From assembly GCF_044704955.1 (NCBI RefSeq), contig NC_091984.1, positions 148,056,001 through 148,120,000 on the forward strand: DNA of 64,000 nt. Reading direction: 5' to 3'. The notes beneath the pieces are model-generated. The model had not been told where the DNA came from and ran no database searches. It saw only the letters and a program-made list of their open reading frames with translations. This DNA comes from Pristiophorus japonicus (taxonomy: Eukaryota). The position numbers were made by a program, and so were the translations under genes. Positions 5,633-19,227 of this stretch are shown piece by piece; position 1 is the first letter of the stretch, and each line of letters opens with the position of its first letter.

Positions 5633-6892
5633 CCTGATCTGGCGGGCCGTAATGGGGGATTTCTCATTCTCAAATGCCTCCATGACCATAAGCAAGTCCG
5701 CTGGCTGTGCCATTTCCACCCCAGTGGTGGGCAACGGTAACCGACTGAGAGCATCTGTGCAGTTCTCTGTGCCCGGTCTGTGGCGAATTACACAGTTGCA
5801 TGCCAACAGCATGAGCACCCATCTTTGGATGCAGGCAGAGGCATTGGTATTTATCGTTTGCTCTCTGAGAACAGCGAAATGAGCGGCTTGTGATCTGTTT
5901 CAAGTTCGAACGTCAGGCCAAGCAAGTACTGGTGCATTTTTTTTACAATGTAAACACAAGCCAGAGTCTCTTTTTCAATCATGCTGTAGGCCCTTTCGGC
6001 CTTGGACAAACTCCTAGATGGATATGCAACCGGTTGCAAAATCCCCAATTCATTAGCCTGTTGTAAAACACACCCGAACTTGTATGATGACGCATCGCAA
6101 GCTAACACTAGTCGTTTACATGGGTTATACAGGACAAGCAGTTTGTTAGAACACAGTAAATTTCTGGCTTTCTTAAAAGCAGCCTCTTGTGAATTCCCCC
6201 ATACCCAGTCGTCTCCCCTGCGCAGTAGCGCATGCAAGGGTTCTAGTAGGGTGCTTAACCCAGGTAGGAAATTACCGAAGTAGTTCAGGAGTCCCAGAAA
6301 CGACGGCAGTTCTGTGGTCACAGCGTGTTCTTGATGGCCTCCGTCTTGGCGTCGGTCGGTCTGATGCCATCTGCTGCGATCCTTCTTCCTAATAATTCAA
6401 CCTCCTGTGCCAGGAATACACACTTTGAGCGTTTCAACCTGAGCCCCACGCGATCCAACCGACTAAGAACCTCATCCATAGTGCTCCATAGTGTCCCAAC
6501 CTGTAACCAATATGTTGTCCTGGAAGACCAGTGTACAAGGAACCGACTTTAGCAGGCTTTCCATGTTTTGCTGGAAGATTGCTGCAGCCGACCGAATCCC
6601 GAACGGGCACCGGTTCTAAATGAATAGACCTTTGTGCGAGTTGATGCAGGTGGGGCCTTTTGAAGACTCCTCCAGCTCCTGCACCATGTAGGCCGAGGTC
6701 AGGTCCAGCTTGTGAACGTCTTCCCTCCAGCAAGGTCGCAAAAGGGCGTCTGCCTTGGGTAGCGAAAAACGGTTCATTGTTACTTTATAGTCACCGCAAA
6801 TTCTAACTGTACTGTCCTCCTTGAGTATGGGAACAATCAGGCCGGCCCAGTGTTGAATTCCACCGGCGCGATGATGCCCTCACGTTACAGCC

Positions 6893-7368
6893 TGTGGAAG
6901 AAAACGATCTCTGTAGTATGGTAAAGGGAAGGGTTAAAATCACTTCTTGCTGATATTGTAGAAATAATGGAGCTAGAGAAAACACCCAAACTTCTTTGTC
7001 TTGAGAAAACAAAAATTGATTATCTGTTCCCTGCATGAGTCTCCTAAAACTGATTATTGACACAGACAGGGAGAAACTGATTATTGACACAGACAGGGAG
7101 AAATTATGCAAGAACAGATAATGTGTGCCTTCCGGGATGACCTTTGTATTCTCGGAGTAATATGATTAATGTTAATGTGTGGAATTTGAAGATAAAACTC
7201 CTCTTTTTACTGTATAAATATGGCGCGGGTTTTCCTGTAAAAGTCAGAGTTCTGCCTTAGTGTGGACTAAGCGGGCTCTCCGAGATATCTCGTTAGAAAT
7301 AAACTTTCTCTCGAAGCACGGCTCTGAAAGTCTCCGCTGAGTTAATTTAAGCTAAAATTTCTTCGACA
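6893..7368 (+). repeat. ERV 5' LTR
   Basis: TGTGGAAG...CTTCGACA; 27-bp U3 tandem repeat (AAACTGATTATTGACACAGACAGGGAG x2); TATAAATA ~7213; AATAAA ~7298. Confidence 0.97.
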
Positions 7369-7373
7369 GATTC

Positions 7374-7392
7374 TGGCGTAGTCAGGCAGGAT
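7374..7392 (+). promoter_or_regulatory. Primer-binding site complementary to tRNA-Ser
   Basis: TGGCGTAGTCAGGCAGGAT versus the complement of the vertebrate tRNA-Ser 3' end, TGGCGTAGTCGGCAGGAT (one extra A). Confidence 0.8.
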
Positions 7393-7713: not shown

Positions 7714-9414
7714 ATGGGAAACAGCTCTAGTCGAGCAGGGCGCTCGCGCCCAGCTCCTAGAAAAGGAAAGAAAGACGACCCCTTGACCAAAGGAATGAAA
7801 TTACATTCTAAAACCGAAAAGAGAATCCGTAAGGTAGTAAAGCAACGAGAGAAGGTAGGAGATCCAATTGTGCCGCCCGGCTCGCCGGCGGACACTGTAA
7901 TTAAAGAAACAGGAGATGACCGATACGCGGTAACGTTTAGTAGCGATTTGTACGGTTGGTCTGATGGGGATTGGCCATATGGAGGAAGTTTTAAACTATC
8001 TTTAATTGAGGAATGGAGAAAAATAACCAAGGAAGGAGGGGGAGACCCTACTTGGGACAAGGATTACATGGAAAATTGTTTTAATAAATGGATTGAGGTT
8101 GCTAAGAGACATCAGCCTCCGAAAAATAAAAATTCGGAGAATAAATCAGGAGGAAAAGAAAAGGGGGAAAATGAAAAACCTCCCTCTTATAGCCCTCCAA
8201 ACCTCCCTATCCCCTCAGCACCCACTGTGGGACTTTATCCTCGTATAGAACCCCCAAAGCGAAATAGCTGGCAGGAAATTATAGAAATGGTTATTGCCCA
8301 TAGAGATCAAGCCCAGAGAGAACTAGCTGTCCTCCCGGCCCCACCACCTAATGGAGGAGCCGATGGAGGAAACCCGGAGGTATTAGGAGCAGGGGCTGAA
8401 GCAGCAGAGGGAGGGGAAGTCAATCAGAGATCTGGGATGAGTTCTCGACTAAGGTCGCAAACAACCCCAGCCCAGGCAGAAGCCGACTCTACCCTCCTCC
8501 TCCAAAATCCCAGGGTAATGATAGGAACCACAGCGGTTTTAAAACCCTGGTCCCCGGGAGAGGCCAGAGATATGATCTCTGCCGCCCCAAACCCAGTAAA
8601 GAAACCTATAGCATTTCACAACTGGCTTGAGCAGACATGTACGATTTACAATCCGCTACCGGGGGATATTAAATTATTATTACAAGCAGCCTACGGATCC
8701 TCCTGGCAGGGAGTAAAAGATATGTTCTCGATCCCGCCAGGAGAAAGGGAGGATTGGAGAGTTGATGATACCTTGCTGGACAACGGCAATGAGTCATTAA
8801 CTCACTGGCTGCAACATAGGGGAAAAAATGCAATTCTGAAGGGAGCTAAAAAACATGGGGACATTGGGGAAGTCAACCGCTGTCTGCAGAAAGCGGAAGA
8901 ATCAATGATAGATTTCGCAGGCAGGTGGAAAAATAGCTGGGACGAGCATGCAGGAATACCCTTGGATCAAAACGAACTTTTAGCAGTGCAGACTTTGTTG
9001 AATTGTATGTTACCACAGCATGCCAGAACGTACAAGATCAAGGTCTTGGACTGGCAAGGAAAAAACTGGAAGGAAACAATTACAGTACTGGCAAACATGG
9101 ACAGGGAGGGACTATTTACCTACAAAGATAACAAAGCCAAAACAGCAGGACAATACTATCAGCAGAAAGGAAGAGGACAAGCACAGAATAGAGGAGGGTT
9201 TGGGGGAAGGAGGGGAGGAGGAAGAGGACAGTGGTCCCAGCGAGATCGCTCGCAAGATGAGTGTAGAAATTGCGGAAGGAAGGGGCACTGGGCTCGAGAT
9301 TGTAGGTGCCCACCTAAACAGTTTGGAGGGTTACAGGGGAATTTCCCCGAACCTACACCTCCACTGGCCCCTCAATTTTCCTTTTCTAACCCCAACCCGC
9401 ACCAATCAGCATAG
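7714..9414 (+). CDS. gag: Retroviral Gag
   Basis: ATG at 7714 gives MGNSSS (myristoylation motif); PPSY, PSAP and LYPRI late-domain motifs; single CCHC knuckle CRNCGRKGHWARDC; ends in TAG. Confidence 0.93.
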   Translation: MGNSSSRAGRSRPAPRKGKKDDPLTKGMKLHSKTEKRIRKVVKQREKVGDPIVPPGSPADTVIKETGDDRYAVTFSSDLYGWSDGDWPYGGSFKLSLIEEWRKITKEGGGDPTWDKDYMENCFNKWIEVAKRHQPPKNKNSENKSGGKEKGENEKPPSYSPPNLPIPSAPTVGLYPRIEPPKRNSWQEIIEMVIAHRDQAQRELAVLPAPPPNGGADGGNPEVLGAGAEAAEGGEVNQRSGMSSRLRSQTTPAQAEADSTLLLQNPRVMIGTTAVLKPWSPGEARDMISAAPNPVKKPIAFHNWLEQTCTIYNPLPGDIKLLLQAAYGSSWQGVKDMFSIPPGEREDWRVDDTLLDNGNESLTHWLQHRGKNAILKGAKKHGDIGEVNRCLQKAEESMIDFAGRWKNSWDEHAGIPLDQNELLAVQTLLNCMLPQHARTYKIKVLDWQGKNWKETITVLANMDREGLFTYKDNKAKTAGQYYQQKGRGQAQNRGGFGGRRGGGRGQWSQRDRSQDECRNCGRKGHWARDCRCPPKQFGGLQGNFPEPTPPLAPQFSFSNPNPHQSA

Positions 9415-12400
9415 GGATGCCCTGGAGGTGTAGTGGTACAGGCGGCAACCCTCCGCTTATCTACAGACATAGAAGAGAATCCTTTGGCAGTAATAAAACT
9501 GGGAAACACTGATGTAAAGTTTCTGGTGGATACCGGTGCTACTATGTCTTCTGTACCACCCTCTGTGGGATTACCTGTAAGCAACACTACCGTCTTGAGC
9601 ATGGGAGTGGCCGGTATCCCCCTGAAAGAATTTTTGTCCGAACCTACTAAATTGACAATTGAAGGACACCAAGTAGATAATGAGAGTTTGATAGTCTCTC
9701 AAACAGCCCCTCTCCCCTTATTAGGAAGACAGACTTTGTGCAAACTAGGAGCCACAATATATTGCACAAAGGAAGGGATGTTCATGGAGCTCCCTCAAAA
9801 TAAAATCCATCAGTTCTTTGATGGGATTAAAAGGGAGGAGGGGGAAGATAACAAAGAAAAGGCTGCCCTCTATTGTTGGCAATTGAGTGACAACTTCTAT
9901 TCCCCCCTGATACAGGATATTGTAAAAAACTTAAAAGCTAAATTTGACTCTAATGCGGACGAACTGATGTATATCATCTTAACAAGCTTTGAGGCGGTTC
10001 AGCTTCACTGCACAGCCTGGTACACTCGACAAAAAGCTGAAACTTACCAGTGCTTAATACAGCCCTTTCTAGATAAAGAAGAGATAATAGAAGCTACACC
10101 CCGCATTTATTTCGGACCAGAAGGATTAGGGGTAGCCATGGATTTGACACCCTTACAGCAGAAGCGGTTTAAAGAAGAGAACTCGACACCCCATCTGACA
10201 TTGGCTGTAAAACCGCTGGCGAAACCCAAAGATATGGGTCCGATGATTGTAGAAATAGAAAAGGAGAAGCAGCATCAAGGCTATAGACCTTGGGCAGTAA
10301 TAGAATTACAGAATGTCCAGATAGCATTTATCACCCGTTCCAGGGGAATTCTCCAGTGGAAAGGTAAAAGTTATGCCTCCACCTTTAAAAAACAGCAACC
10401 CCCTGGACAACCGAGCCCTAAGCTGCCAATGGCATTGAATCAAGTGTCTTCTGAACTTTGGGCAAAACATAAGAATCATGTTGGGAAGGTACATTCTGCA
10501 GCACCCCACCGGGTACGACTGATAAAGAACGCCGTGTTACCAAGCATTAAGCAGTACACACTGCCTCCAGAGGCAGAAGATGGGATAGAGCCAGTCATTT
10601 CTGCATTGTTGGAACAAGGAGTTCTAGAAAAGACACAGAGCCCGTGTAACACTCCGATACTGCCCATACCAAAGGTTAATAGGCCGAATGAGTGGAGATT
10701 TGTGCAAGATCTAAGAGCTATTAATAAGATAGTAGTCCCTATCACCCCTGTGGTACCGGACACCAACATTGTGCTATCTGCCATCCCACCAACAGCAACT
10801 GTCTTTACTGTGATAGATTTGTGCTCAGCCTTTTTCTCCATCCCAGTAAATCAAGAGAGTCAGTATCTGTTTGCTTTCACCGACAAGAAACAGCAGTACA
10901 CATGGACCCGGTTGCCCCAAGGGTACACCGAAAGCCCCGCAGTATATGCAGCAGCAGTAAAAAGAGACCTAGAAGACTGTTTATTATCAGACCAGTCTGT
11001 ACTGTTACAATATGCGGATGATTTGCTTGTGGCTTCCAGCCACGGATACAGATGCATGCAAGATTCCCTGAAATTATTACAACACCTATGTGAAAGAGGG
11101 CACCGAGTATCATTACAAAAGCTACAATTTTGCCAGACTCAAGTCCAGTACCTGGGTTTCCACATATCTCAAGGGCAGAGGCAGCTAGGACCCGAAAGAA
11201 TTCAGACTATTCAGAGTATCCCCATACCAAAGACAAAAAAGGATATTTTGTCTTTTTTGGGGATGGTTGGGTACTGCAGACAGTGGATCCCTGATTATCG
11301 AGAATGGGATGCGGTCCTAAGATCAGCTGCCCTAAATGATGCCCCACCCAAGGTAGAGTGGACCCCAGAGAGGGAGGAGGTGTTTGAACAGTTAAAGAAA
11401 GCTATCACTAACGCTCCGGCATTGGGACTTCCAAACTATTCTAAACCCTTTCAGATGTATGTGAATGAGAAAGAAGGATTTGCAACGGCGGTATTAACCC
11501 AAGAACATGGTGGGGGAAATAGACCAGTGGCCTATTATTCGGTTTTACTTCCTCCAGTAGTGAGGGGAATGCCAGCATGTCTACGCGCTGTAGCCGCTAC
11601 TGCGGTCATGGTGGAGAAGTCAGTACCTATTGTTTTGGACTATCCGTGTACTGTCGTTACAGCTCATGCAGTGCTATTACTATTGAACTCTGCCGCCACC
11701 CAGCATTTCACAGCATCTAGAAGAACAGGTTATGAAGTACTGCTGCTATCACACTCTAACTACACCTTTCAACGCGCGCCGATAGTAAACCCCGCCACTT
11801 TTGTTCCCACTAGAGAAATAGAGGATCCAGACCAGCATGACTGTCTGTTAACAGTGGAATTAGCCACCTTGCCGAGACCAGATTTGCTCACAGAGCCCAT
11901 GGACAATCCTGATCTCATTCTCTATACGGATGGGTCATCGTACAGACCATCAGATAATTTGCTTTTGTCAGGCTATGCAATTGTAAGCCCCCATGAAACT
12001 GTTGAAGCATTTGCCCTGCCTCCTGGAACCTCGGCTCAGGCTGCTGAATTATTTGCCCTCACCAGAGCTTGTATAATAGCAAAAGATCAAACTACCAATA
12101 TCTATACTGATTCTAGATATGCATTCGGTGTGGTCCATGATTTTGGACAACTATGGAAAAACAGAGGCTTTATCACCTCTGGTGGAAAGCATATTAAGCA
12201 CTCTCAATTGGTGCTTAATCTATTAGACACCATTCAGTTGCCAAATAAGGTAGCCGTTATCAAATGTGCAGCACACACAATCGGTGAGGATGAAGTGTCA
12301 GTGGGAAATAGGAGGGCTGATGAAGCAGCCAAACAGGTCGCTTCGGCACAGACAGACTGCCTTCAAGCAGTCTCAGTCACCCTTCCACAGACACTTGACG

Positions 12401-13548
12401 TCCAACTACTTAAAACAGCCCAACAACAAGTTACTATGCAAGAAAGAAGGACTTGGGAAAACCAGGGTTGCTTTCTAAAAAATGACATTTGGTATCACCC
12501 TGATGGGCGAACTGTTTGCCCTAGATCTCTATTCTTGCCCCTGTCTCGCCTAGCACACGGTCAGGCTCACATGGGCAAAGGAGGGATGATGCATGCTATT
12601 AATGCACAGTGGTATGCACCAGGAATAACAGTGGTAATTGAAAAAGTTGCTAGAACATGCCAAATTTGTCAACAAAATAACAGAGGTAAAACACCTGCTG
12701 AATATGATCATCTACCCCAGCCAAGTATGCCCTTTGAAAATTTGCAAATTGATTTTGTCCACATGCCTCCAGTATCAGGTTTTAAGTACCTATTAGTCAT
12801 AGTAGACATGTTCACAAGGTGGGTAGAAGCGTACGCCACGAGGAGAGACGATGCCCGAACAGTAGTAAAGATTCTATTTAAAGAAATAGTACCAAGATAT
12901 GGGATACCTATGGGAATCAACAGTGACAGGGGAACACACTTCACCGGAAAAATAGTGCAAAATCTTGCAGAAGCGTTAGGTTTCCAGTGGAAGTTACATA
13001 TACCATATCAACCTCAGTCTTCAGGAATAGTAGAGAGAGTAAATGGGATAATAAAATCTACCCTTACCAAGGTATGTAAGGAGACAGGATTAAAATGGCC
13101 AGACGCCCTACTGTTGGTACTATATACATTAAGAAACCAGAAAAAACGAAACACTGGTTTGACACCGCATGAAGCCTTATTGGGAAGGCCAATGCCTACC
13201 GGAGTAAAACCACCACTGGTAGCGGAAAAGGTAGCATTAATTTGGAATGATGAAAAATCACTAAAGTATGCTCAGGCCATGTGTAAAATAGCAAGAAGTC
13301 TGCATGAACAGATAAAGCAGACACAGGTGCCCCTGTTGGAAGGAAATATGCACCCATTCAAGCCAGGAGACCAAGTGTTAGTGAAAACATTAAACAAAGA
13401 ATCTTTTTCTCCTAGGTGGAAAGGACCGTATCAGATAATTCTCACGACGAGAACGGCATTGAAATTGGAAAAGCATCCAAACTGGGTGCATGCAACCCGT
13501 TGTAAATATTACTTCCCCAACAAATCACAGCCAAAAGAAGAGACATAG
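9415..13548 (+). CDS. pol: Retroviral Pol (PR - 2H phosphoesterase-like insert - RT - RNase H - IN), in frame with gag after TAG
   Basis: FLVDTGA; LPQGY..QYADD; YTDGS/SAQAAEL/YTDSRY; HHCC, QIDF..SDRG..VER and WKGPY. No stop codon in ~1377 codons. Confidence 0.96.
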   Translation, partial: GCPGGVVVQAATLRLSTDIEENPLAVIKLGNTDVKFLVDTGATMSSVPPSVGLPVSNTTVLSMGVAGIPLKEFLSEPTKLTIEGHQVDNESLIVSQTAPLPLLGRQTLCKLGATIYCTKEGMFMELPQNKIHQFFDGIKREEGEDNKEKAALYCWQLSDNFYSPLIQDIVKNLKAKFDSNADELMYIILTSFEAVQLHCTAWYTRQKAETYQCLIQPFLDKEEIIEATPRIYFGPEGLGVAMDLTPLQQKRFKEENSTPHLTLAVKPLAKPKDMGPMIVEIEKEKQHQGYRPWAVIELQNVQIAFITRSRGILQWKGKSYASTFKKQQPPGQPSPKLPMALNQVSSELWAKHKNHVGKVHSAAPHRVRLIKNAVLPSIKQYTLPPEAEDGIEPVISALLEQGVLEKTQSPCNTPILPIPKVNRPNEWRFVQDLRAINKIVVPITPVVPDTNIVLSAIPPTATVFTVIDLCSAFFSIPVNQESQYLFAFTDKKQQYTWTRLPQGYTESPAVYAAAVKRDLEDCLLSDQSVLLQYADDLLVASSHGYRCMQDSLKLLQHLCERGHRVSLQKLQFCQTQVQYLGFHISQGQRQLGPERIQTIQSIPIPKTKKDILSFLGMVGYCRQWIPDYREWDAVLRSAALNDAPPKVEWTPEREEVFEQLKKAITNAPALGLPNYSKPFQMYVNEKEGFATAVLTQEHGGGNRPVAYYSVLLPPVVRGMPACLRAVAATAVMVEKSVPIVLDYPCTVVTAHAVLLLLNSAATQHFTASRRTGYEVLLLSHSNYTFQRAPIVNPATFVPTREIEDPDQHDCLLTVELATLPRPDLLTEPMDNPDLILYTDGSSYRPSDNLLLSGYAIVSPHETVEAFALPPGTSAQAAELFALTRACIIAKDQTTNIYTDSRYAFGVVHDFGQLWKNRGFITSGGKHIKHSQLVLNLLDTIQLPNKVAVIKCAAHTIGEDEVSVGNRRADEAAKQVASAQTDCLQAVSVTLPQTLDVQLLKTAQQQVTMQERRTWENQGCFLKNDIWYHPDGRTVCPRSLFLPLSRLAHGQAHMGKGGMMHAINAQWYAPGITVVIEKVARTCQICQQNNRGKTPAEYDHLPQPSMPFENLQIDFVHMPPVSGFKYLLVIVDMFTRWVEAYATRRDDARTVVKILFKEIVPRYGIPMGINSDRGTHFTGKIVQNLAEALGFQWKLHIPYQPQSSGIVERVNGIIKSTLTKVCKETGLKWPDALLLVLYTLRNQKKRNTGLTPHEALLGRPMPTGVKPPLVAEKVALIWNDEKSLKYAQAMCKIARSLHEQIKQTQVPLLEGNMHPFKPGDQVLVKTLNKESFSPRWKGPYQIILTTRTALKLEKHPNWVHATRCKYYFPNKSQPKEET

Positions 13549-13681: not shown

Positions 13682-13828
13682 ATGTCAGAACTTGCTTGTA
13701 TGCCAATTTGGGCCTTTATTATTTGGATCACTGTTACCCTCGTGCTTGCGTGCTGTTATTTTAACAAATTAATACAGGAGTGTTATAGAAACAGAGAAAA
13801 AAGGGAAGATGAGGCGGAAAAGCTGTAA
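13682..13828 (+). CDS. Putative 48-aa single-pass membrane accessory protein overlapping the env start
   Basis: Hand translation MSELACMPIWAFIIWITVTLVLACCYFNKLIQECYRNREKREDEAEKL*; shorter than any ORF in the supplied track; preceded by a splice-acceptor-like site at ~13639. Confidence 0.55.
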   Translation: MSELACMPIWAFIIWITVTLVLACCYFNKLIQECYRNREKREDEAEKL

Positions 13829-15296
13829 GCGGACATTGGGCATTCTGATCATTTTAGCAGTAGGAAGAGTCAGACAGGAAGAAGGAAAAGAATGGAAGGG
13901 AGATATGGAGTGGGAAAGAAGTGATAGGTCAGAACGGCAAGATAACTTTGTATGCCCAGAAGGAAAAAATTGTAAAATAGGGAACTTCACAGTAATGTGC
14001 AAAGCTTGTGGAGTGGGGAAAGGCATAAAAATAAGAAATGCCTGGGATGAAGGATTACAGCAATTGCAGGTATCAGGTTATATCACAGACGAAATGACCT
14101 GGGGGCAGAATGAAAAGATAGAGAAGGAAATAGAAAACCTAATGAAGGAACAAAAGGAAGTAAATAAGTACACCCATTGCATGTTCAGGGAGATGATCAG
14201 ACAGTTACTGAGAGCCGAGCTAGAAAGGAAAGTACTATCCTTCCATGCTAACACATGGGAGAGATTACTGGAAATCAATCAGAAAGATAAACTTCTAAAT
14301 TTAACCATTAAACCCCAAGAAAAATATACTGGTTGCGATTTAAAAGGATGTAACATCACTATGGAAATAGTAAATAAGACAAAAGGAGAAATATGGTGTC
14401 AGTTCCAAGTAATACCCCAGTTGTTCGGACGAAACTTCTGGTACCCAGAATTTAAAGGAGACTGGGTTGATGAAAAGAATCTAACACATCACGACAGGGG
14501 ATGTGCTAGGTGGCCGTTCGGAATGGTGTGTCCCTATCAGACTGCCATACACGAACCATGCTCTCTACAGCACCCCACTGGAATATGTAGATGGGAACTA
14601 AAACCAACCAATGACACCGATATTTCTGAAGTAGGACAGAATGAGGTCTGCCTGACGGGAAATAGACCTGTCTACCTGGACGGAATTCTGTATAAACCCC
14701 CCATTAATACATGTGTGAGAGAAGTCTACACCCTGTATGATCCAGAAGAAAGAAGAACTTATACTTTTGGGCAGTGGCAGAATGTAGTAAAATATCTGTC
14801 TGTGCACAAAATTGATCCTTTACCCCCTGTAATTAATTTGACCAGATTGCACAATTTGATAAAAAATGACAAACAAATAGAGGAGGCTCTGTCCAAAAGG
14901 GGCCAAGACATCCACCAGTTCAAAATAGAAATGAGTTACAAGAAGGGACAACTAGTAAGAATCGCGAATGCAGTCACCTCCCTGACAGTACACCACTGGT
15001 GGGATGTGTTTTCCGGATGGTCCCCCAAAGCTTCAGCAGTACTGAAGCTTGCTATATACCCCATAGTAATCGTAGGTGTGGTTATGCTTATATTACTAAT
15101 AATCATGTGTGGGATGTGGATAAAAGTAAAAAGGCTAATTAACCAGGTAATGGGCCTAGTATCCCAAGTAGAAGGGAAAAGTATGTTTGTGAAAGGAAGG
15201 TTAAGCCGCATAGAAGAAAAATTAGATGAATATGACGAAGTAGAATGCCTCAAGATGCGACCCTACCCCGAAGGATATGAACCCCCTTTTCAATAA
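13809..15296 (+). CDS. env: Envelope-like glycoprotein (class III/ERV-S-like TM region) with no obvious furin site or fusion peptide
   Basis: Signal-like N-terminus, N-glycosylation sequons, Cys-rich ectodomain, HHWWDVFSGWSP before a long TM helix; lies just before the PPT and 3' LTR. Confidence 0.85.
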   Translation: MRRKSCKRTLGILIILAVGRVRQEEGKEWKGDMEWERSDRSERQDNFVCPEGKNCKIGNFTVMCKACGVGKGIKIRNAWDEGLQQLQVSGYITDEMTWGQNEKIEKEIENLMKEQKEVNKYTHCMFREMIRQLLRAELERKVLSFHANTWERLLEINQKDKLLNLTIKPQEKYTGCDLKGCNITMEIVNKTKGEIWCQFQVIPQLFGRNFWYPEFKGDWVDEKNLTHHDRGCARWPFGMVCPYQTAIHEPCSLQHPTGICRWELKPTNDTDISEVGQNEVCLTGNRPVYLDGILYKPPINTCVREVYTLYDPEERRTYTFGQWQNVVKYLSVHKIDPLPPVINLTRLHNLIKNDKQIEEALSKRGQDIHQFKIEMSYKKGQLVRIANAVTSLTVHHWWDVFSGWSPKASAVLKLAIYPIVIVGVVMLILLIIMCGMWIKVKRLINQVMGLVSQVEGKSMFVKGRLSRIEEKLDEYDEVECLKMRPYPEGYEPPFQ

Positions 15297-15345: not shown

Positions 15346-15821
15346 TGTGGAAGAAAACGATCTCTGTAGTATGGTAAAGGGAAGGGTTAAAATCACTTCT
15401 TGCTGATATTGTAGAAATAATGGAGCTAGAGAAAACACCCGAACTTCTTTGTCTTAAGAAAACAAAAACTGATTATCTGTTCCCTGCATGAGTCTCCTAA
15501 AACTGATTATTGACACAGACAGGGAGAAACTGATTATTGACACAGACAGGGAGAAACTATGCAAGAACAGATAATGTGTGCCTTCCGGGATGACCTTTGT
15601 ATTCTCGGAGTAATATGATTAATGTTAATGTGTGGAATTTGAAGATAAAACTCCTCTTTTTACTGTATAAATATAGCGCGGGTTTTCCTGTAAAAGTCAG
15701 AGCTCTGCCTTAGTGTGGACAAAGCGGGCTCTCCGAGATATCTCGTTAGAAATAAACTTTCTCTCGAAGCACGGCTCTGAAAGTCTCCGCTGAGTTAATT
15801 TAAGCTAAAATTTCTTCGACA
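15346..15821 (+). repeat. ERV 3' LTR
   Basis: Same length as the 5' LTR; ~7 substitutions counted by eye. Confidence 0.97.
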
Positions 15822-17411
15822 CAGCCTGTCCAGCTCGATTTCCACTTTTTCACGCTTCATGTACGGTACCGCCCGAGCCTTGTGGTGGATCGGTCGCGTA
15901 CCAGGAACCAAATGGATCTGCACTTGCGTCCCCGAGAAACTTCCAATGCCTGGCTCGAATAACGATGAGAACTTGCTTAGAACCTGGGTACATGCGGTGT
16001 CATCAACTGACGAAAGCGCTCGGATGTTGTCCCAGTTCCAGCGGATTTTCCCCAGCCAGCTTCTGCCAAATAACGTGGGGCCATCCCATGGCACAATCCA
16101 TAGCGGGAGTTCGTGTACTGCTCCATCATAGGAGACTTTGACTTCAGCACTGCCAATTACCGAGATTAGTTCCCTTGTATAAGTCCTTAACTTCGTGTGA
16201 ATGGGGCTGAGCTTGGGCCTGTGTGCAATGGCTGCAGAACAATGGGACACTTCCAACGAATGTGCAGGTGAGCTACAAACCCTGCAAACCCTGCAAATTA
16301 CCACGTTGCAGAGGAAGATCGGTCCACAGTGGAGCAGACAGATCTGGGTGCCTTCTTCCCCCACAGCCTGTCGAAGGCTGTTTTACTCATTATGGACTGA
16401 CTTGCTCCCGTGTACCGCTCCATTGACACTGGAATACCATTCAGTTCAACTTTCAACATTATTGGTGGGCATTGCGTCGTGAACGTGTGTACCCCATACA
16501 CCTCTGCCTCCTCAGTATGAGTTTTCAATTCCATCTGATCCACTGTGGACCGATCTTCCTCTGCAACGTGGTGGTTTGCAGGGTTTGCAGCTCGCCTGCA
16601 CATTCATTGGAGGTGTCCCATTGTTCTGCAACCATTGCATACATAGTGCTTAAAGCGGCATTGATGGGGCCGATGATCACCTCCGCAGCACCAACAGGGT
16701 GTTAACTGCCTCGTATTAACAGATGATGACGGATTCTGGGTCAATTGAGGTCAGGCCACAGCAGCCGGTGTGTACATTCTGCCATGTACATTTCTGCTCA
16801 AAACCGACGTTACTTTATGCACAGTACTGGCCAAAACTTCTTTGTTCTGCGAAATCTGCTTGGTGTTGCCGCTGGTGGACATAAATGCTTAGGCTATCGT
16901 TATGGCTTTATTCAGATTTGCTGTTTCTACAGTCAACAAGCTTGCGAAAGATTGTCTCATGTCCAATGCCCAGTACAAAAAAGTCTCTGAGCATTTGTTC
17001 TCGGAATGCCTCAAACTCACAATGTTCTGCAAGGTGCCTTAGTTCGGTGACGTAGCTCGCCACTTCCTGGTCCCCCGATCGTTGACACGTGTATAACCAA
17101 TATTTCACCATCAAAAGGCTTTCCTTAGGATTTAGGTGCTCCTGGACCAGCGTACACAGTTCTTCATAGGATTTATCTGTTGGTTTAGCCGGGGCCAGGA
17201 TATTCTTCATGAGGCCATAGGTAGTGGCCCTACAGACGGTTAGGAGGATCGCCCATCGTTTGGTTGCATTCTCGTCCCCTTCCAGCTTGTTGGCTAAGAA
17301 GTATTGGTCGAGTCTCTCCACATAGTCCTCCCTATCATCCCCCTCCGAGAACTTCTCCAGGATGCCAACTGTTCTTTGCATTTACGCGCGGTTCGTTATC
17401 TCGTCACCAAT

Positions 17412-17639: not shown

Positions 17640-17859
17640 ACAATGCTCCTGTGAAGCACTCGGGGAGTTTTACTGTGTTAAAGGTGCTGCATAAAAGTTG
17701 CTGTTATTGTTTGTTCTGAGTTAGCTGTTCCAACTGAGGTCGGGATATGACTCACAGCTCAGACTGTGCAGCATCCAGAGATGCAATGTTGTATCGTGGG
17801 TTCAAGCCCCACTCCAGGGACCTGAGTGCAAAATAAAGACATACATTACTGTGCAGTCC

Positions 17860-18100
17860 TGAGGGAGTGCTGCACTGTCAGAGGGGCAGTACTGAGGGAG
17901 TGCCGCACTGTCGCAGGAGCAGTACTGAGGGAGTGCCGCACTGTCAGAGGGGCAGTTCTGAGGGGAGTGCTGCACTGTCAGAGGGGCAGTACTGAGGGAG
18001 TGCTGCATTATCAGAGAGACAGTACTGAGGGAGTGCTGCACTGTGAGAGAGGCAGTACTGAGGAAGTGCTGCACTGTCAGAGGGGCAGTACTGAGGGGTT
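17860..18100. repeat. 33-bp tandem repeat (SINE-derived), ~7 units
   Basis: AGGGAGTGCTGCACTGTCAGAGGGGCAGTACTG units; accounts for the 11-aa periodic ORFs. Confidence 0.85.
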
Positions 18101-18103
18101 GCC

Positions 18104-19227
18104 TGTAGGTGGTTCTCTCAGCCGTACCAAAAACGCACCTCCTTCTACAAGTTCTGGACGATAGGGATTATATGGACAGATGAGACTCAGACACACGTTT
18201 TTCGGGTTCAACCGTATTGTGTTTAATAAGATTAACAACACCACTCATAAACAGTGCAAAACAGTACATCCCTGGCTTGTCCAATAAGCCCTGCCGTGCT
18301 AAGTTACCACGGCTTAATAAAAGGACCGTCCCGTGAAATAAACTAACACAGGACCCCCCCCCCGCCGCCCAGCACTAAACCCCTTGGGTTTGGTTGGGAC
18401 TTACAATCACTCCCTCACACAGCTAAGTGGTGTTGCGGATGTGTAGGCGCAGGCAATATGCTCACCCTGATTGCCCGTTGTCTTGATTGCAGCTTCTTCC
18501 TGAACGTCTCGCTCCTGGGCTTTTTCCTGGGCTTTTCTGGAGCTTTTCCTGGGCTTTTTCCTGGGCTTTTTCCTGAGCTTCTTCCACCTGAGCTGGAGTT
18601 TGTTGCAAAGTGGCTCCTTATATCCCCAAAACCCATCACTTTTCCTCCCGCCAATACTGACCGATGGATTGATTCCGGTGATCTGTCTGGACCCCTCCTC
18701 CTCCCCCTCCCGCCGTGGCCTGGAGTGGCTCGTAGCCTTTGAAATCTTTGTGAAAAATGATGTTTTATTTTCGCTCCCAGGCCTTGCATCTGGAGAGACA
18801 ATGGGTGCTGATTACTGGATGTCTGTCGTTTCCTGAGTTGATGGCCCCCATTAGCAGGTAATGGGTTTCGATCACAAACCGATCTTGCTTAACCGGCTTA
18901 TCTCCTGGAAGACAACGGGCCGGCCATTTCCTGCATTGCACCAGTTTGGGTTGGGACTGAGTGGTGACTGTGCTTTAATAATGCGAAGGCACAGTGTCTC
19001 TGAGTTACCTCTCGGGGTATTGTTCCCAGTAATCACTTTAGATGGTGATGACATCAATGGGCCTGGGTTCCCTGTTACCCAGCCTGTCAGTGTGAAATGT
19101 CCGGTTGTATATGAATGCAGCTCAGTGCCACCCCACAAGCTCGCCAACAGTACAGTTCTTTCTTGGGGATTTGGATTTATGGAATTAAAATATTGTTGAT
19201 AGAAATGGCCAGAAAGCTGGTGCTACA
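18104..19227 (-). repeat. 3' LTR (~1.1 kb) of a second LTR-retroelement family
   Basis: Minus strand reads TGTAGC...CCTACA, preceded by PPT TAGGGGG-AT and an integrase remnant. Confidence 0.75.

What the first reader, a model, noticed from the sequence alone, without database searches (positions are those of the whole stretch)
9860..10390. CNPase-like 2H-phosphoesterase domain embedded in ERV Pol between protease and RT
Seen: ~180-200 extra in-frame residues between PR and RT with two HxT motifs, QLHCTAWY (His at 10006) and TPHLTLAV (His at 10192), 62 aa apart. The surrounding ALYCWQL, IYFGPEGLGVAMDLT and KDMGPMIVEI parallel vertebrate CNPase (LYFGWFL, LHCTT, FVTPKTTGARVEL, AHITLG). Established: paired Hx(T/S) motifs define 2H phosphoesterases, and coronavirus ns2 and rotavirus VP3 use this fold to destroy 2-5A. 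From memory, a similar domain was noted in some teleost ERVs such as ZFERV, so the domain may not be new, but I know of no established function for it. Inference: a catalytically intact, virion-packaged enzyme against nucleotide second messengers (2-5A or cGAMP), or for healing 2',3'-cyclic-phosphate RNA/tRNA-primer ends.
Basis: partly seen in the sequence, partly recalled or inferred. Interest (0 to 1): 0.85.

Follow-up and report, generated by a model that had tools for sequence, protein, structure and literature searches.

The report
CNPase-like enzyme inside retroviral Pol
A young endogenous retrovirus carries, between its protease and reverse transcriptase, a conserved domain predicted to fold like the host enzyme CNPase; such domains were already noted in fish retroviruses, and this one likely opens 2',3'-cyclic phosphates on RNA ends or nucleotides rather than destroying 2-5A or cGAMP, which is inferred and not tested.

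Summary
A young provirus (LTRs 6893-7368 and 15346-15821, 7 of 476 bases differ) has about 200 extra in-frame residues between protease and RT, with HCT at 10006 and HLT at 10192. An alignment-based model (pLDDT 83) matches vertebrate CNPase far better than any other two-histidine (2H) enzyme: Z 16.9, against 6.2-6.9 for ns2, VP3 and Acb1. The domain is under purifying selection and sits in the same Pol position in fish, salamander and shark ERVs and in at least four ERV families of this genome; 39 of 46 aligned homologues keep both motifs. It is not new: reviews credit 2002 and 2009 papers with 2H/CNPase domains in fish retroviruses, and this scan reported it in five other windows. The 2-5A idea is weak, since the motifs stay intact in hosts that lost OAS-RNase L. 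Most likely it is a Gag-Pol-borne CNPase-type enzyme opening 2',3'-cyclic phosphates; its purpose is open. Two leads: the same fold lies in walleye retrovirus Env, probably in its cytoplasmic loop, and the teleost sister clade has largely lost the histidines. My paper searches found no functional test.

The parts
6888..6892 (+). Left target-site duplication (CAGCC), repeated at 15822-15826; the provirus sits inside a Ty3/gypsy-like element on the minus strand
6893..7368 (+). 5' LTR (TG...CA)
   Evidence: 476 bp, 7 mismatches to the 3' LTR
7374..7391 (+). Primer-binding-site-like stretch starting TGG, 5 bases after the LTR; tRNA-Ser-like from memory only
   Evidence: sequence; tRNA identity recalled, not tested
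7714..9414 (+). gag, with a CCHC zinc knuckle, ending in TAG in frame with pol (readthrough inferred)
9472..9759 (+). Retroviral aspartyl protease (Pol aa 20-115)
   Evidence: Pfam RVP E 8e-8
9847..10395 (+). CNPase-like 2H phosphoesterase domain (Pol aa 145-327), between a charged linker and a proline-rich linker
   Evidence: AF2 pLDDT 82.9; Foldseek E 4e-9, TM 0.76 to mouse CNPase; VIA Z 16.9, rmsd 3.3, 181 aligned
10006..10023 (+). First motif HCTAWY (H = CNPase H230, T = T232, Y = F235 position)
10192..10200 (+). Second motif HLT (H = CNPase H309, T = T311)
10666..11166 (+). Reverse transcriptase core (YADD); RT begins upstream, near 10430
   Evidence: Pfam RVT_1 E 1e-25
11911..12342 (+). 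RNase H
   Evidence: Pfam RNase_H
12724..13014 (+). Integrase core
   Evidence: Pfam rve
13809..15296 (+). env-position ORF with a C-terminal hydrophobic stretch; no family match; probably shorter than in most other copies
15346..15821 (+). 3' LTR

Best explanation
The retrovirus encodes, in frame between protease and RT, a domain predicted to fold like vertebrate CNPase, which is likely an active enzyme carried into virions with Gag-Pol and likely converts 2',3'-cyclic phosphates on RNA ends or free nucleotides into 2'-phosphate/3'-OH products. Shown: position, motifs, conservation, purifying selection, predicted fold. Inferred: capture of a host CNP catalytic domain by an ancestor of this retrovirus group; translation by TAG readthrough; packaging; activity. 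Purpose, inferred and ranked: (a) cleaning up nuclease-cut viral RNA or primer tRNA, since this chemistry leaves a 3'-OH (about 0.25); (b) destroying cyclic-phosphate ligands of TLR7/8 such as 2',3'-cGMP (about 0.2); (c) withdrawing substrate from the RTCB ligase, as CNP does for XBP1 splicing (about 0.1).
For: Fold: all 42 Foldseek rows shown against solved structures are CNPase or RICH (best E 3.9e-9, TM 0.76). VIA Z 16.9 (rmsd 3.3, 181 of 183 aligned) for CNPase, next 7.4; Acb1 6.9, ns2 6.5, VP3 6.2, penguinpox cGAMP PDE 5.7, AKAP18 5.5. Sequence: the family profile finds goldfish RICH at E 5e-4; 21 of 23 PDB hits are CNPase/RICH, and it aligns with an exon of this genome's own CNP gene at E 2e-5, probability 77%. 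The model has a helix (127-142) right after the second motif strand, where CNPase has its family-specific helix alpha7, proposed to set stereospecificity (PMC4643303). Conservation in 47 rows: H54 41, T/S56 46, H116 43, T/S118 40, aromatic at the F235 position 42, the G matching host CNP 41; both motifs in 39 of 46 rows that span them. dN/dS 0.23-0.33 against five more distant copies, like the protease (0.21-0.32, four copies). CNP acts on RNA cyclic-phosphate ends and lowers RTCB-mediated XBP1 splicing (review PMC13247085). The top viral structural hits are Env polyproteins of walleye dermal sarcoma virus and walleye epidermal hyperplasia virus 1 (TM 0.67-0.68, E 1.4e-9); WDSV Env has a cytoplasmic loop between residues 874 and 1045 (PMC3185748), the right size, so a second placement would also face the cytoplasm or virion interior.
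Against: No activity was measured. Identity to CNPase is only 15-20% and a direct BLASTP to the host exon finds nothing. Two CNPase substrate-site residues are not kept: V321 corresponds to K/R in 33 of 47 rows and R307 has no Arg in any row; the Y168 register is unresolved. Substrate choice may therefore differ. 7 of 46 homologues have lost a motif, all in one teleost clade, and by RT that clade is the sister of this element (8 of 9 rows affected, SH-aLRT 81; the set with this element 100). Several of them still have Pol frames of 1343-1425 aa, so catalysis looks dispensable there. dN/dS is higher than for RT (0.11-0.16) and the comparisons are not independent. The place of the fold in WDSV Env is inferred from size; the tool gave no range. 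The distance between the two histidines could not be measured, as no coordinates were available.
Confidence: 0.6

Rival explanations
1. The domain is an antagonist of nucleotide second messengers, cleaving 2-5A (OAS-RNase L) or cGAMP (cGAS-STING), like coronavirus ns2, rotavirus VP3 or avipox PDE.
For: The 2H fold has been repurposed this way many times (PMC11410667; PMC10835031). This host genome has an OAS gene cluster (16 matches to PF10421) and cartilaginous fish have a working OAS-RNase L pair (PMC10400998). The teleost sister clade, in hosts without RNase L, has largely lost the motifs, which is what this idea predicts for that one clade. Basic residues replace V321.
Against: Known 2-5A PDEs descend from AKAP7-like genes and score Z 5.5-6.5 against 16.9 for CNPase. 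Those enzymes make 2',3'-cyclic products and the four tested do not cut cGAMP (PMC8406329). Intact motifs occur in ERV proteins named from Corythoichthys, Austrofundulus, Sarotherodon, Gymnodraco, Gasterosteus, Syngnathoides, Fundulus, Trichomycterus, Takifugu and Pleurodeles, all in lineages reported to have lost OAS-RNase L. cGAMP is not excluded by host range.
Confidence: 0.15
2. The main role is non-catalytic: a membrane- or Gag-binding module, a decoy against host CNP, or a spacer that helps Gag-Pol processing.
For: Mammalian CNP blocks HIV-1 assembly by binding Gag, independent of its enzyme activity (review PMC5758531). One clade keeps the domain at about full length (292 aa against 298-325 between the same anchors) after losing histidines.
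Against: The four catalytic residues are among the best-kept columns in a family with about 20-28% identity, across at least four families in this genome and most teleost families.
Confidence: 0.17
3. It is an inert passenger, a captured host fragment with no use to the virus.
For: Loss of motifs in one clade.
Against: dN/dS about 0.25; retention in frame across shark, teleost and salamander ERVs; broadly matching 2H and RT trees.
Confidence: 0.03

Closest known systems
CNPase-encoding epsilon-like ERVs of ray-finned fish (Basta et al. 2009, not held; seen only as one sentence in review PMC4977317) and 2H domains of fish retroviruses and WDSV (Mazumder et al. 2002, not held; seen only as cited in PMC9503650)
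   Same: A CNPase/2H domain encoded by fish-type retroviruses. Teleost Pol proteins with the same PR-2H-RT order were retrieved here.
   Different: Host here is likely a cartilaginous fish (closest named protein, 82% identical, is from Pristiophorus japonicus). Whether those papers place the domain between protease and RT could not be read. In walleye viruses the structural match is to Env, not Pol.
Vertebrate CNPase catalytic domain and fish RICH (PDB 2xmi, 1woj, 2i3e; Pfam PF05881)
   Same: Predicted fold over the whole domain, both HxT motifs in register, aromatic at the F235 position, helix in the alpha7 position, conserved glycine at its start.
   Different: 15-20% identity; below Pfam detection; about 30 residues shorter, motifs 62 apart against 79; no N-terminal PNK-like domain; V321 and R307 not kept; embedded in a polyprotein.
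Viral 2',5'-phosphodiesterases and cGAMP PDEs (MHV ns2 4z5v, rotavirus VP3 4rpt, Acb1 7t27, penguinpox PDE 9bkq, AKAP18 2vfk)
   Same: 2H superfamily fold with two Hx(T/S) motifs, carried by a virus.
   Different: Z 5.5-6.9 with 107-134 residues aligned, against 16.9 and 181 for CNPase; separate origin (AKAP7-like for the 2-5A enzymes).

Membership tests
2H phosphoesterase superfamily | Two Hx(T/S)x motifs with hydrophobic x | tested here: met
   HCTA and HLTL; both kept in 39 of 46 homologues
2H phosphoesterase superfamily | Two-lobed 2H fold | tested here: met
   Model pLDDT 82.9, pTM 0.79; the top 21 VIA rows are 2H-type folds (fold assignment of a few rows is recalled)
2H phosphoesterase superfamily | The two histidines face each other in one cleft | tested here: inconclusive
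   Implied by motif register and by 181 of 183 residues superposed on 2xmi; no coordinates were available to measure it
Vertebrate CNPase clade | Closest structural and sequence relative is CNPase/RICH | tested here: met
Vertebrate CNPase clade | Helix alpha7 after the second motif, absent from other 2H enzymes (PMC4643303) | tested here: met
   Predicted helix 127-142 after strand 116-121; ungapped alignment to host CNP through this stretch
Vertebrate CNPase clade | Substrate-site residues F235, V321, Y168, R307 | tested here: inconclusive
   F235 position Y/F in 42 of 47; V321 position K/R in 33 of 47 and never V; R307 position never R; Y168 register unresolved
Vertebrate CNPase clade | Hydrolysis of 2',3'-cyclic nucleotides to 2'-nucleotides | not testable with these tools
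   Needs an assay
Vertebrate CNPase (full protein) | N-terminal PNK-like domain | tested here: not met
   The protease stands in that place; only the catalytic domain is present, so it is a CNPase-derived domain, not a CNPase gene
Viral 2',5'-PDE (AKAP7-like, LigT group) | Closest to AKAP7/ns2/VP3 in structure | tested here: not met
   All are listed, at Z 5.5-6.5, far below CNPase at 16.9
Viral 2',5'-PDE (AKAP7-like, LigT group) | Cleaves 2-5A | not testable with these tools
   Indirect only: host range argues against, motif loss in the sister clade argues mildly for
CNPase-encoding fish ERVs (Basta 2009; Mazumder 2002) | Retroviral genome of aquatic vertebrates encoding a CNPase/2H domain | tested here: met
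   definition taken from reviews
CNPase-encoding fish ERVs (Basta 2009; Mazumder 2002) | Same lineage and same position as the published elements | not testable with these tools
   Both papers are not held; no named reference virus was in my trees

The most novel reading that the evidence does not exclude
Fish-type retroviruses captured host CNPase and placed it inside the virion twice, in Pol here and in the Env cytoplasmic loop of walleye viruses, to destroy 2',3'-cGMP and cyclic-phosphate RNA fragments, the ligands of TLR7/8, as particles are broken down in endosomes. It would be a retroviral enzyme against endosomal RNA sensing, a target not among those reported for viral 2H enzymes in the papers I read. 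Basis: only 2',3'-cGMP among guanine nucleotides potently activates TLR7 (PMC11470960); CNPase has a pH optimum of 6; TLR7/8 in fish is recalled, not checked.
Probability: 0.12. Interest if true: 0.8.

Novelty: new member of a known kind. Interest (0 to 1): 0.38.

Why it matters
The domain has been on record for about two decades, yet my searches found no test of what it does. It is an extra enzyme domain in Pol across a wide group of aquatic-vertebrate retroviruses. Assaying it would show what pressure made retroviruses keep a CNPase, and could throw light on the still unknown physiological substrate of host CNPase. The family supplies natural controls: motif-intact and motif-lost clades, hosts with and without OAS-RNase L, and a second placement in Env.

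Tried and rejected
Single-sequence Pfam and PDB searches: nothing relevant. Near-length homologue search: 0 of 22 candidates passed. Single-sequence fold: pLDDT 35.8, not used. PDB search with alignment A3 was swamped by RT hits and says nothing on the domain. Two of 21 phmmer hits (P0007, P0019) are unrelated repeat proteins and were dropped; P0012 (internally duplicated), P0027, P0028, P0032 and P0045 were left out of A3, and P0022 lacks the first motif region and was left out of the 46. Phage collection: no match. Viral-contig scan did not run. The ESM Atlas did not complete. Sequencing runs: no RNA holder listed, which says nothing on expression. dN/dS against 17 near-identical copies is too noisy (0.28-1.03) to use. 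The count of 35 of 35 own-genome loci with both motifs is biased, since loci were picked by best score and include the window itself and duplicates. Nomburg 2024 and Goldstein 2024 have no passage on retroviral PDEs; the zebrafish ERV survey none on CNPase; their supplements were not searched. No complex prediction was run. An artefact or chance motif pair was rejected on conservation and fold.

Full report
THE LOCUS. The finding lies in a provirus with LTRs at 6893-7368 and 15346-15821 that differ at 7 of 476 bases, and a 5-bp target duplication. It is inserted in a gypsy-like element. gag (7714-9414) ends in TAG, in frame with a 1377-aa pol frame that holds protease, RT, tether, RNase H and integrase by Pfam. 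An env-position ORF follows. The family is large: 150 of 150 scored candidates (of 1263) match the domain at 82-100% identity.

THE OBSERVATION. Between protease (aa 20-115) and the first RT-like stretch near aa 349 lie about 200 extra residues. HCTA at 10006 and HLTL at 10192 are 62 aa apart. Such a pair arises in 0.95% of shuffles. The single sequence matches nothing in Pfam or the PDB.

RELATIVES. phmmer over 1.84 billion representatives gave 21 hits; 2 were unrelated repeat proteins and the other 19 share the motif region, most with protease or RT sequence beside it. A profile search gave 25 longer proteins, all with RT or protease domains; named ones come from teleosts and one shark. A salamander (Pleurodeles) protein is among the first set. 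A search of this genome with a distant homologue found three more ERV families with the domain. The distance from the protease-end motif to the RT NTP motif is 292-325 aa in all 21 rows printed. In alignment A3 (47 rows, mostly 20-28% identical to the query) the catalytic columns are among the best kept: H54 41, T/S56 46, H116 43, T/S118 40; both motifs are whole in 39 of 46 rows that span them. Against five more distant copies (dS 0.22-0.38) dN/dS is 0.23-0.33, like protease and above RT (0.11-0.16); these comparisons are not independent.

WHAT IT IS. A profile of eight ERV domains finds goldfish RICH (E 5e-4) and mammalian CNPase (E 0.03-1.6) as 21 of 23 PDB hits, and aligns to one exon of the host's own CNP gene at E 2e-5. 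AlphaFold2 with A3 gives pLDDT 82.9. Foldseek returns only CNPase/RICH in the rows shown (E 3.9e-9, TM 0.76). VIA-align over 48,161 chains gives CNPase Z 16.9, rmsd 3.3, 181 residues; the next is 7.4, and ns2, VP3, Acb1, penguinpox PDE and AKAP18 lie at 5.5-6.9. Using mouse numbering from PMC4643303 (passages): H230, T232, H309 and T311 are present, F235 is Y/F in 42 of 47 rows, and a helix follows the second motif where CNPase has its distinctive alpha7. V321 is replaced by K/R in 33 of 47 and R307 is absent. It is a CNPase-derived catalytic domain whose substrate site has drifted.

HOW IT LIKELY WORKS. As part of Gag-Pol it would be made by readthrough and packaged; whether protease frees it is unknown. 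CNPase opens 2',3'-cyclic phosphates to 2'-phosphates (PMC5434554, Background section), works on RNA ends and lowers RTCB-dependent XBP1 splicing (PMC13247085, passages). I put about 0.6 on this chemistry being the selected function. The purpose is open: clean-up of cut viral RNA or primer tRNA, removal of TLR7/8 ligands (2',3'-cGMP is the potent TLR7 guanine nucleotide; PMC11470960, abstract and passages; PMC8406329 mentions TLR8 and RIG-I responses to cyclic-ended RNA), or interference with RTCB. The viral structure library adds a clue: the best hits are Env polyproteins of WDSV and WEHV1. WDSV Env has a cytoplasmic loop between helices ending at 874 and starting at 1045 (PMC3185748, passages). 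If the domain is that loop, which I infer from size only, two different placements both put it on the cytoplasmic or virion-inner side, and coupling to RT is not required.

RIVALS. For 2-5A: this genome has OAS genes, cartilaginous fish have a working pathway (PMC10400998, passages), and the teleost sister clade of this element has mostly lost the motifs (8 of 9 rows in the RT tree; 7 of 10 in the domain tree). Against: intact motifs in ERV proteins named from nine teleost genera and a salamander, lineages reported to have lost OAS-RNase L; the fold is not the AKAP7-derived type (PMC10835031, passages). cGAMP is not excluded by host range but has no positive support. A non-catalytic role is possible: CNP restricts HIV-1 assembly without its activity (PMC5758531, passage), and the motif-lost clade keeps the domain in long open Pol frames.

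PRIOR ART. A review states that some ray-finned fish ERVs encode a CNPase (Basta 2009, in PMC4977317, passages). Another states that 2H domains occur in a fish retrovirus and WDSV (Mazumder 2002, in PMC9503650, passages). Neither original is held. ZFERV was not confirmed (PMC8672886, passages). Seven searches on retroviral 2H/CNPase domains listed no functional study; subscription journals and supplements were not seen. This scan has five earlier reports of the same kind on other DNA and none in this genome; they are not independent support. One of them named the Mazumder citation that I then checked.

VERDICT. Real, conserved, likely catalytically competent, and a new member of a known but untested kind. 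Interest 0.38.

Noticed in passing
BFVD hits A4GTG3, Q9WHI8, Q2VF30_1: The same fold is matched in Env polyproteins of WDSV and WEHV1 (TM 0.67-0.68) and in an unnamed 1072-aa entry (TM 0.72). WDSV Env has a cytoplasmic loop of about 170 aa that would fit it.
   Followed up: partly
P0018, P0024-P0029, P0040, P0043: A teleost clade, sister to this element by RT, keeps the domain but has lost one or both catalytic motifs; P0003, P0030 and P0033 in the same clade keep them.
   Followed up: partly
L023; L026, L027, L030, L032, L033; L025, L028, L029, L034: Three further, divergent ERV families of this genome carry the domain with both motifs; in the L025/28/29/34 family the N-terminal part is much shorter.
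   Followed up: partly
window 13809-15296: The env-position ORF matches no Pfam family or PDB chain. Most other copies match only from residue 68-69 on and many have open frames of about 700 codons against 507 here, so this copy's env is probably internally shortened.
   Followed up: partly
G000:C3:232761900-232919919: About two dozen matches to the domain at a spacing of about 5.35 kb, a tandem array of a partial ERV copy.
   Followed up: no
window 5851-6892 and 15822-17381: The provirus interrupts the RT region of a Ty3/gypsy-like element on the minus strand, with a 5-bp target duplication.
   Followed up: partly
G000:C21:4659000-4669000 (L038) and G000:C8:218.42-218.60 Mb: Host CNP gene (one locus found) and a cluster of OAS genes.
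   Followed up: partly
window 17820-18131: 33-nt tandem repeat region; the rest of the window is mostly LINE- and gypsy-like fragments and no tRNA gene.
   Followed up: no
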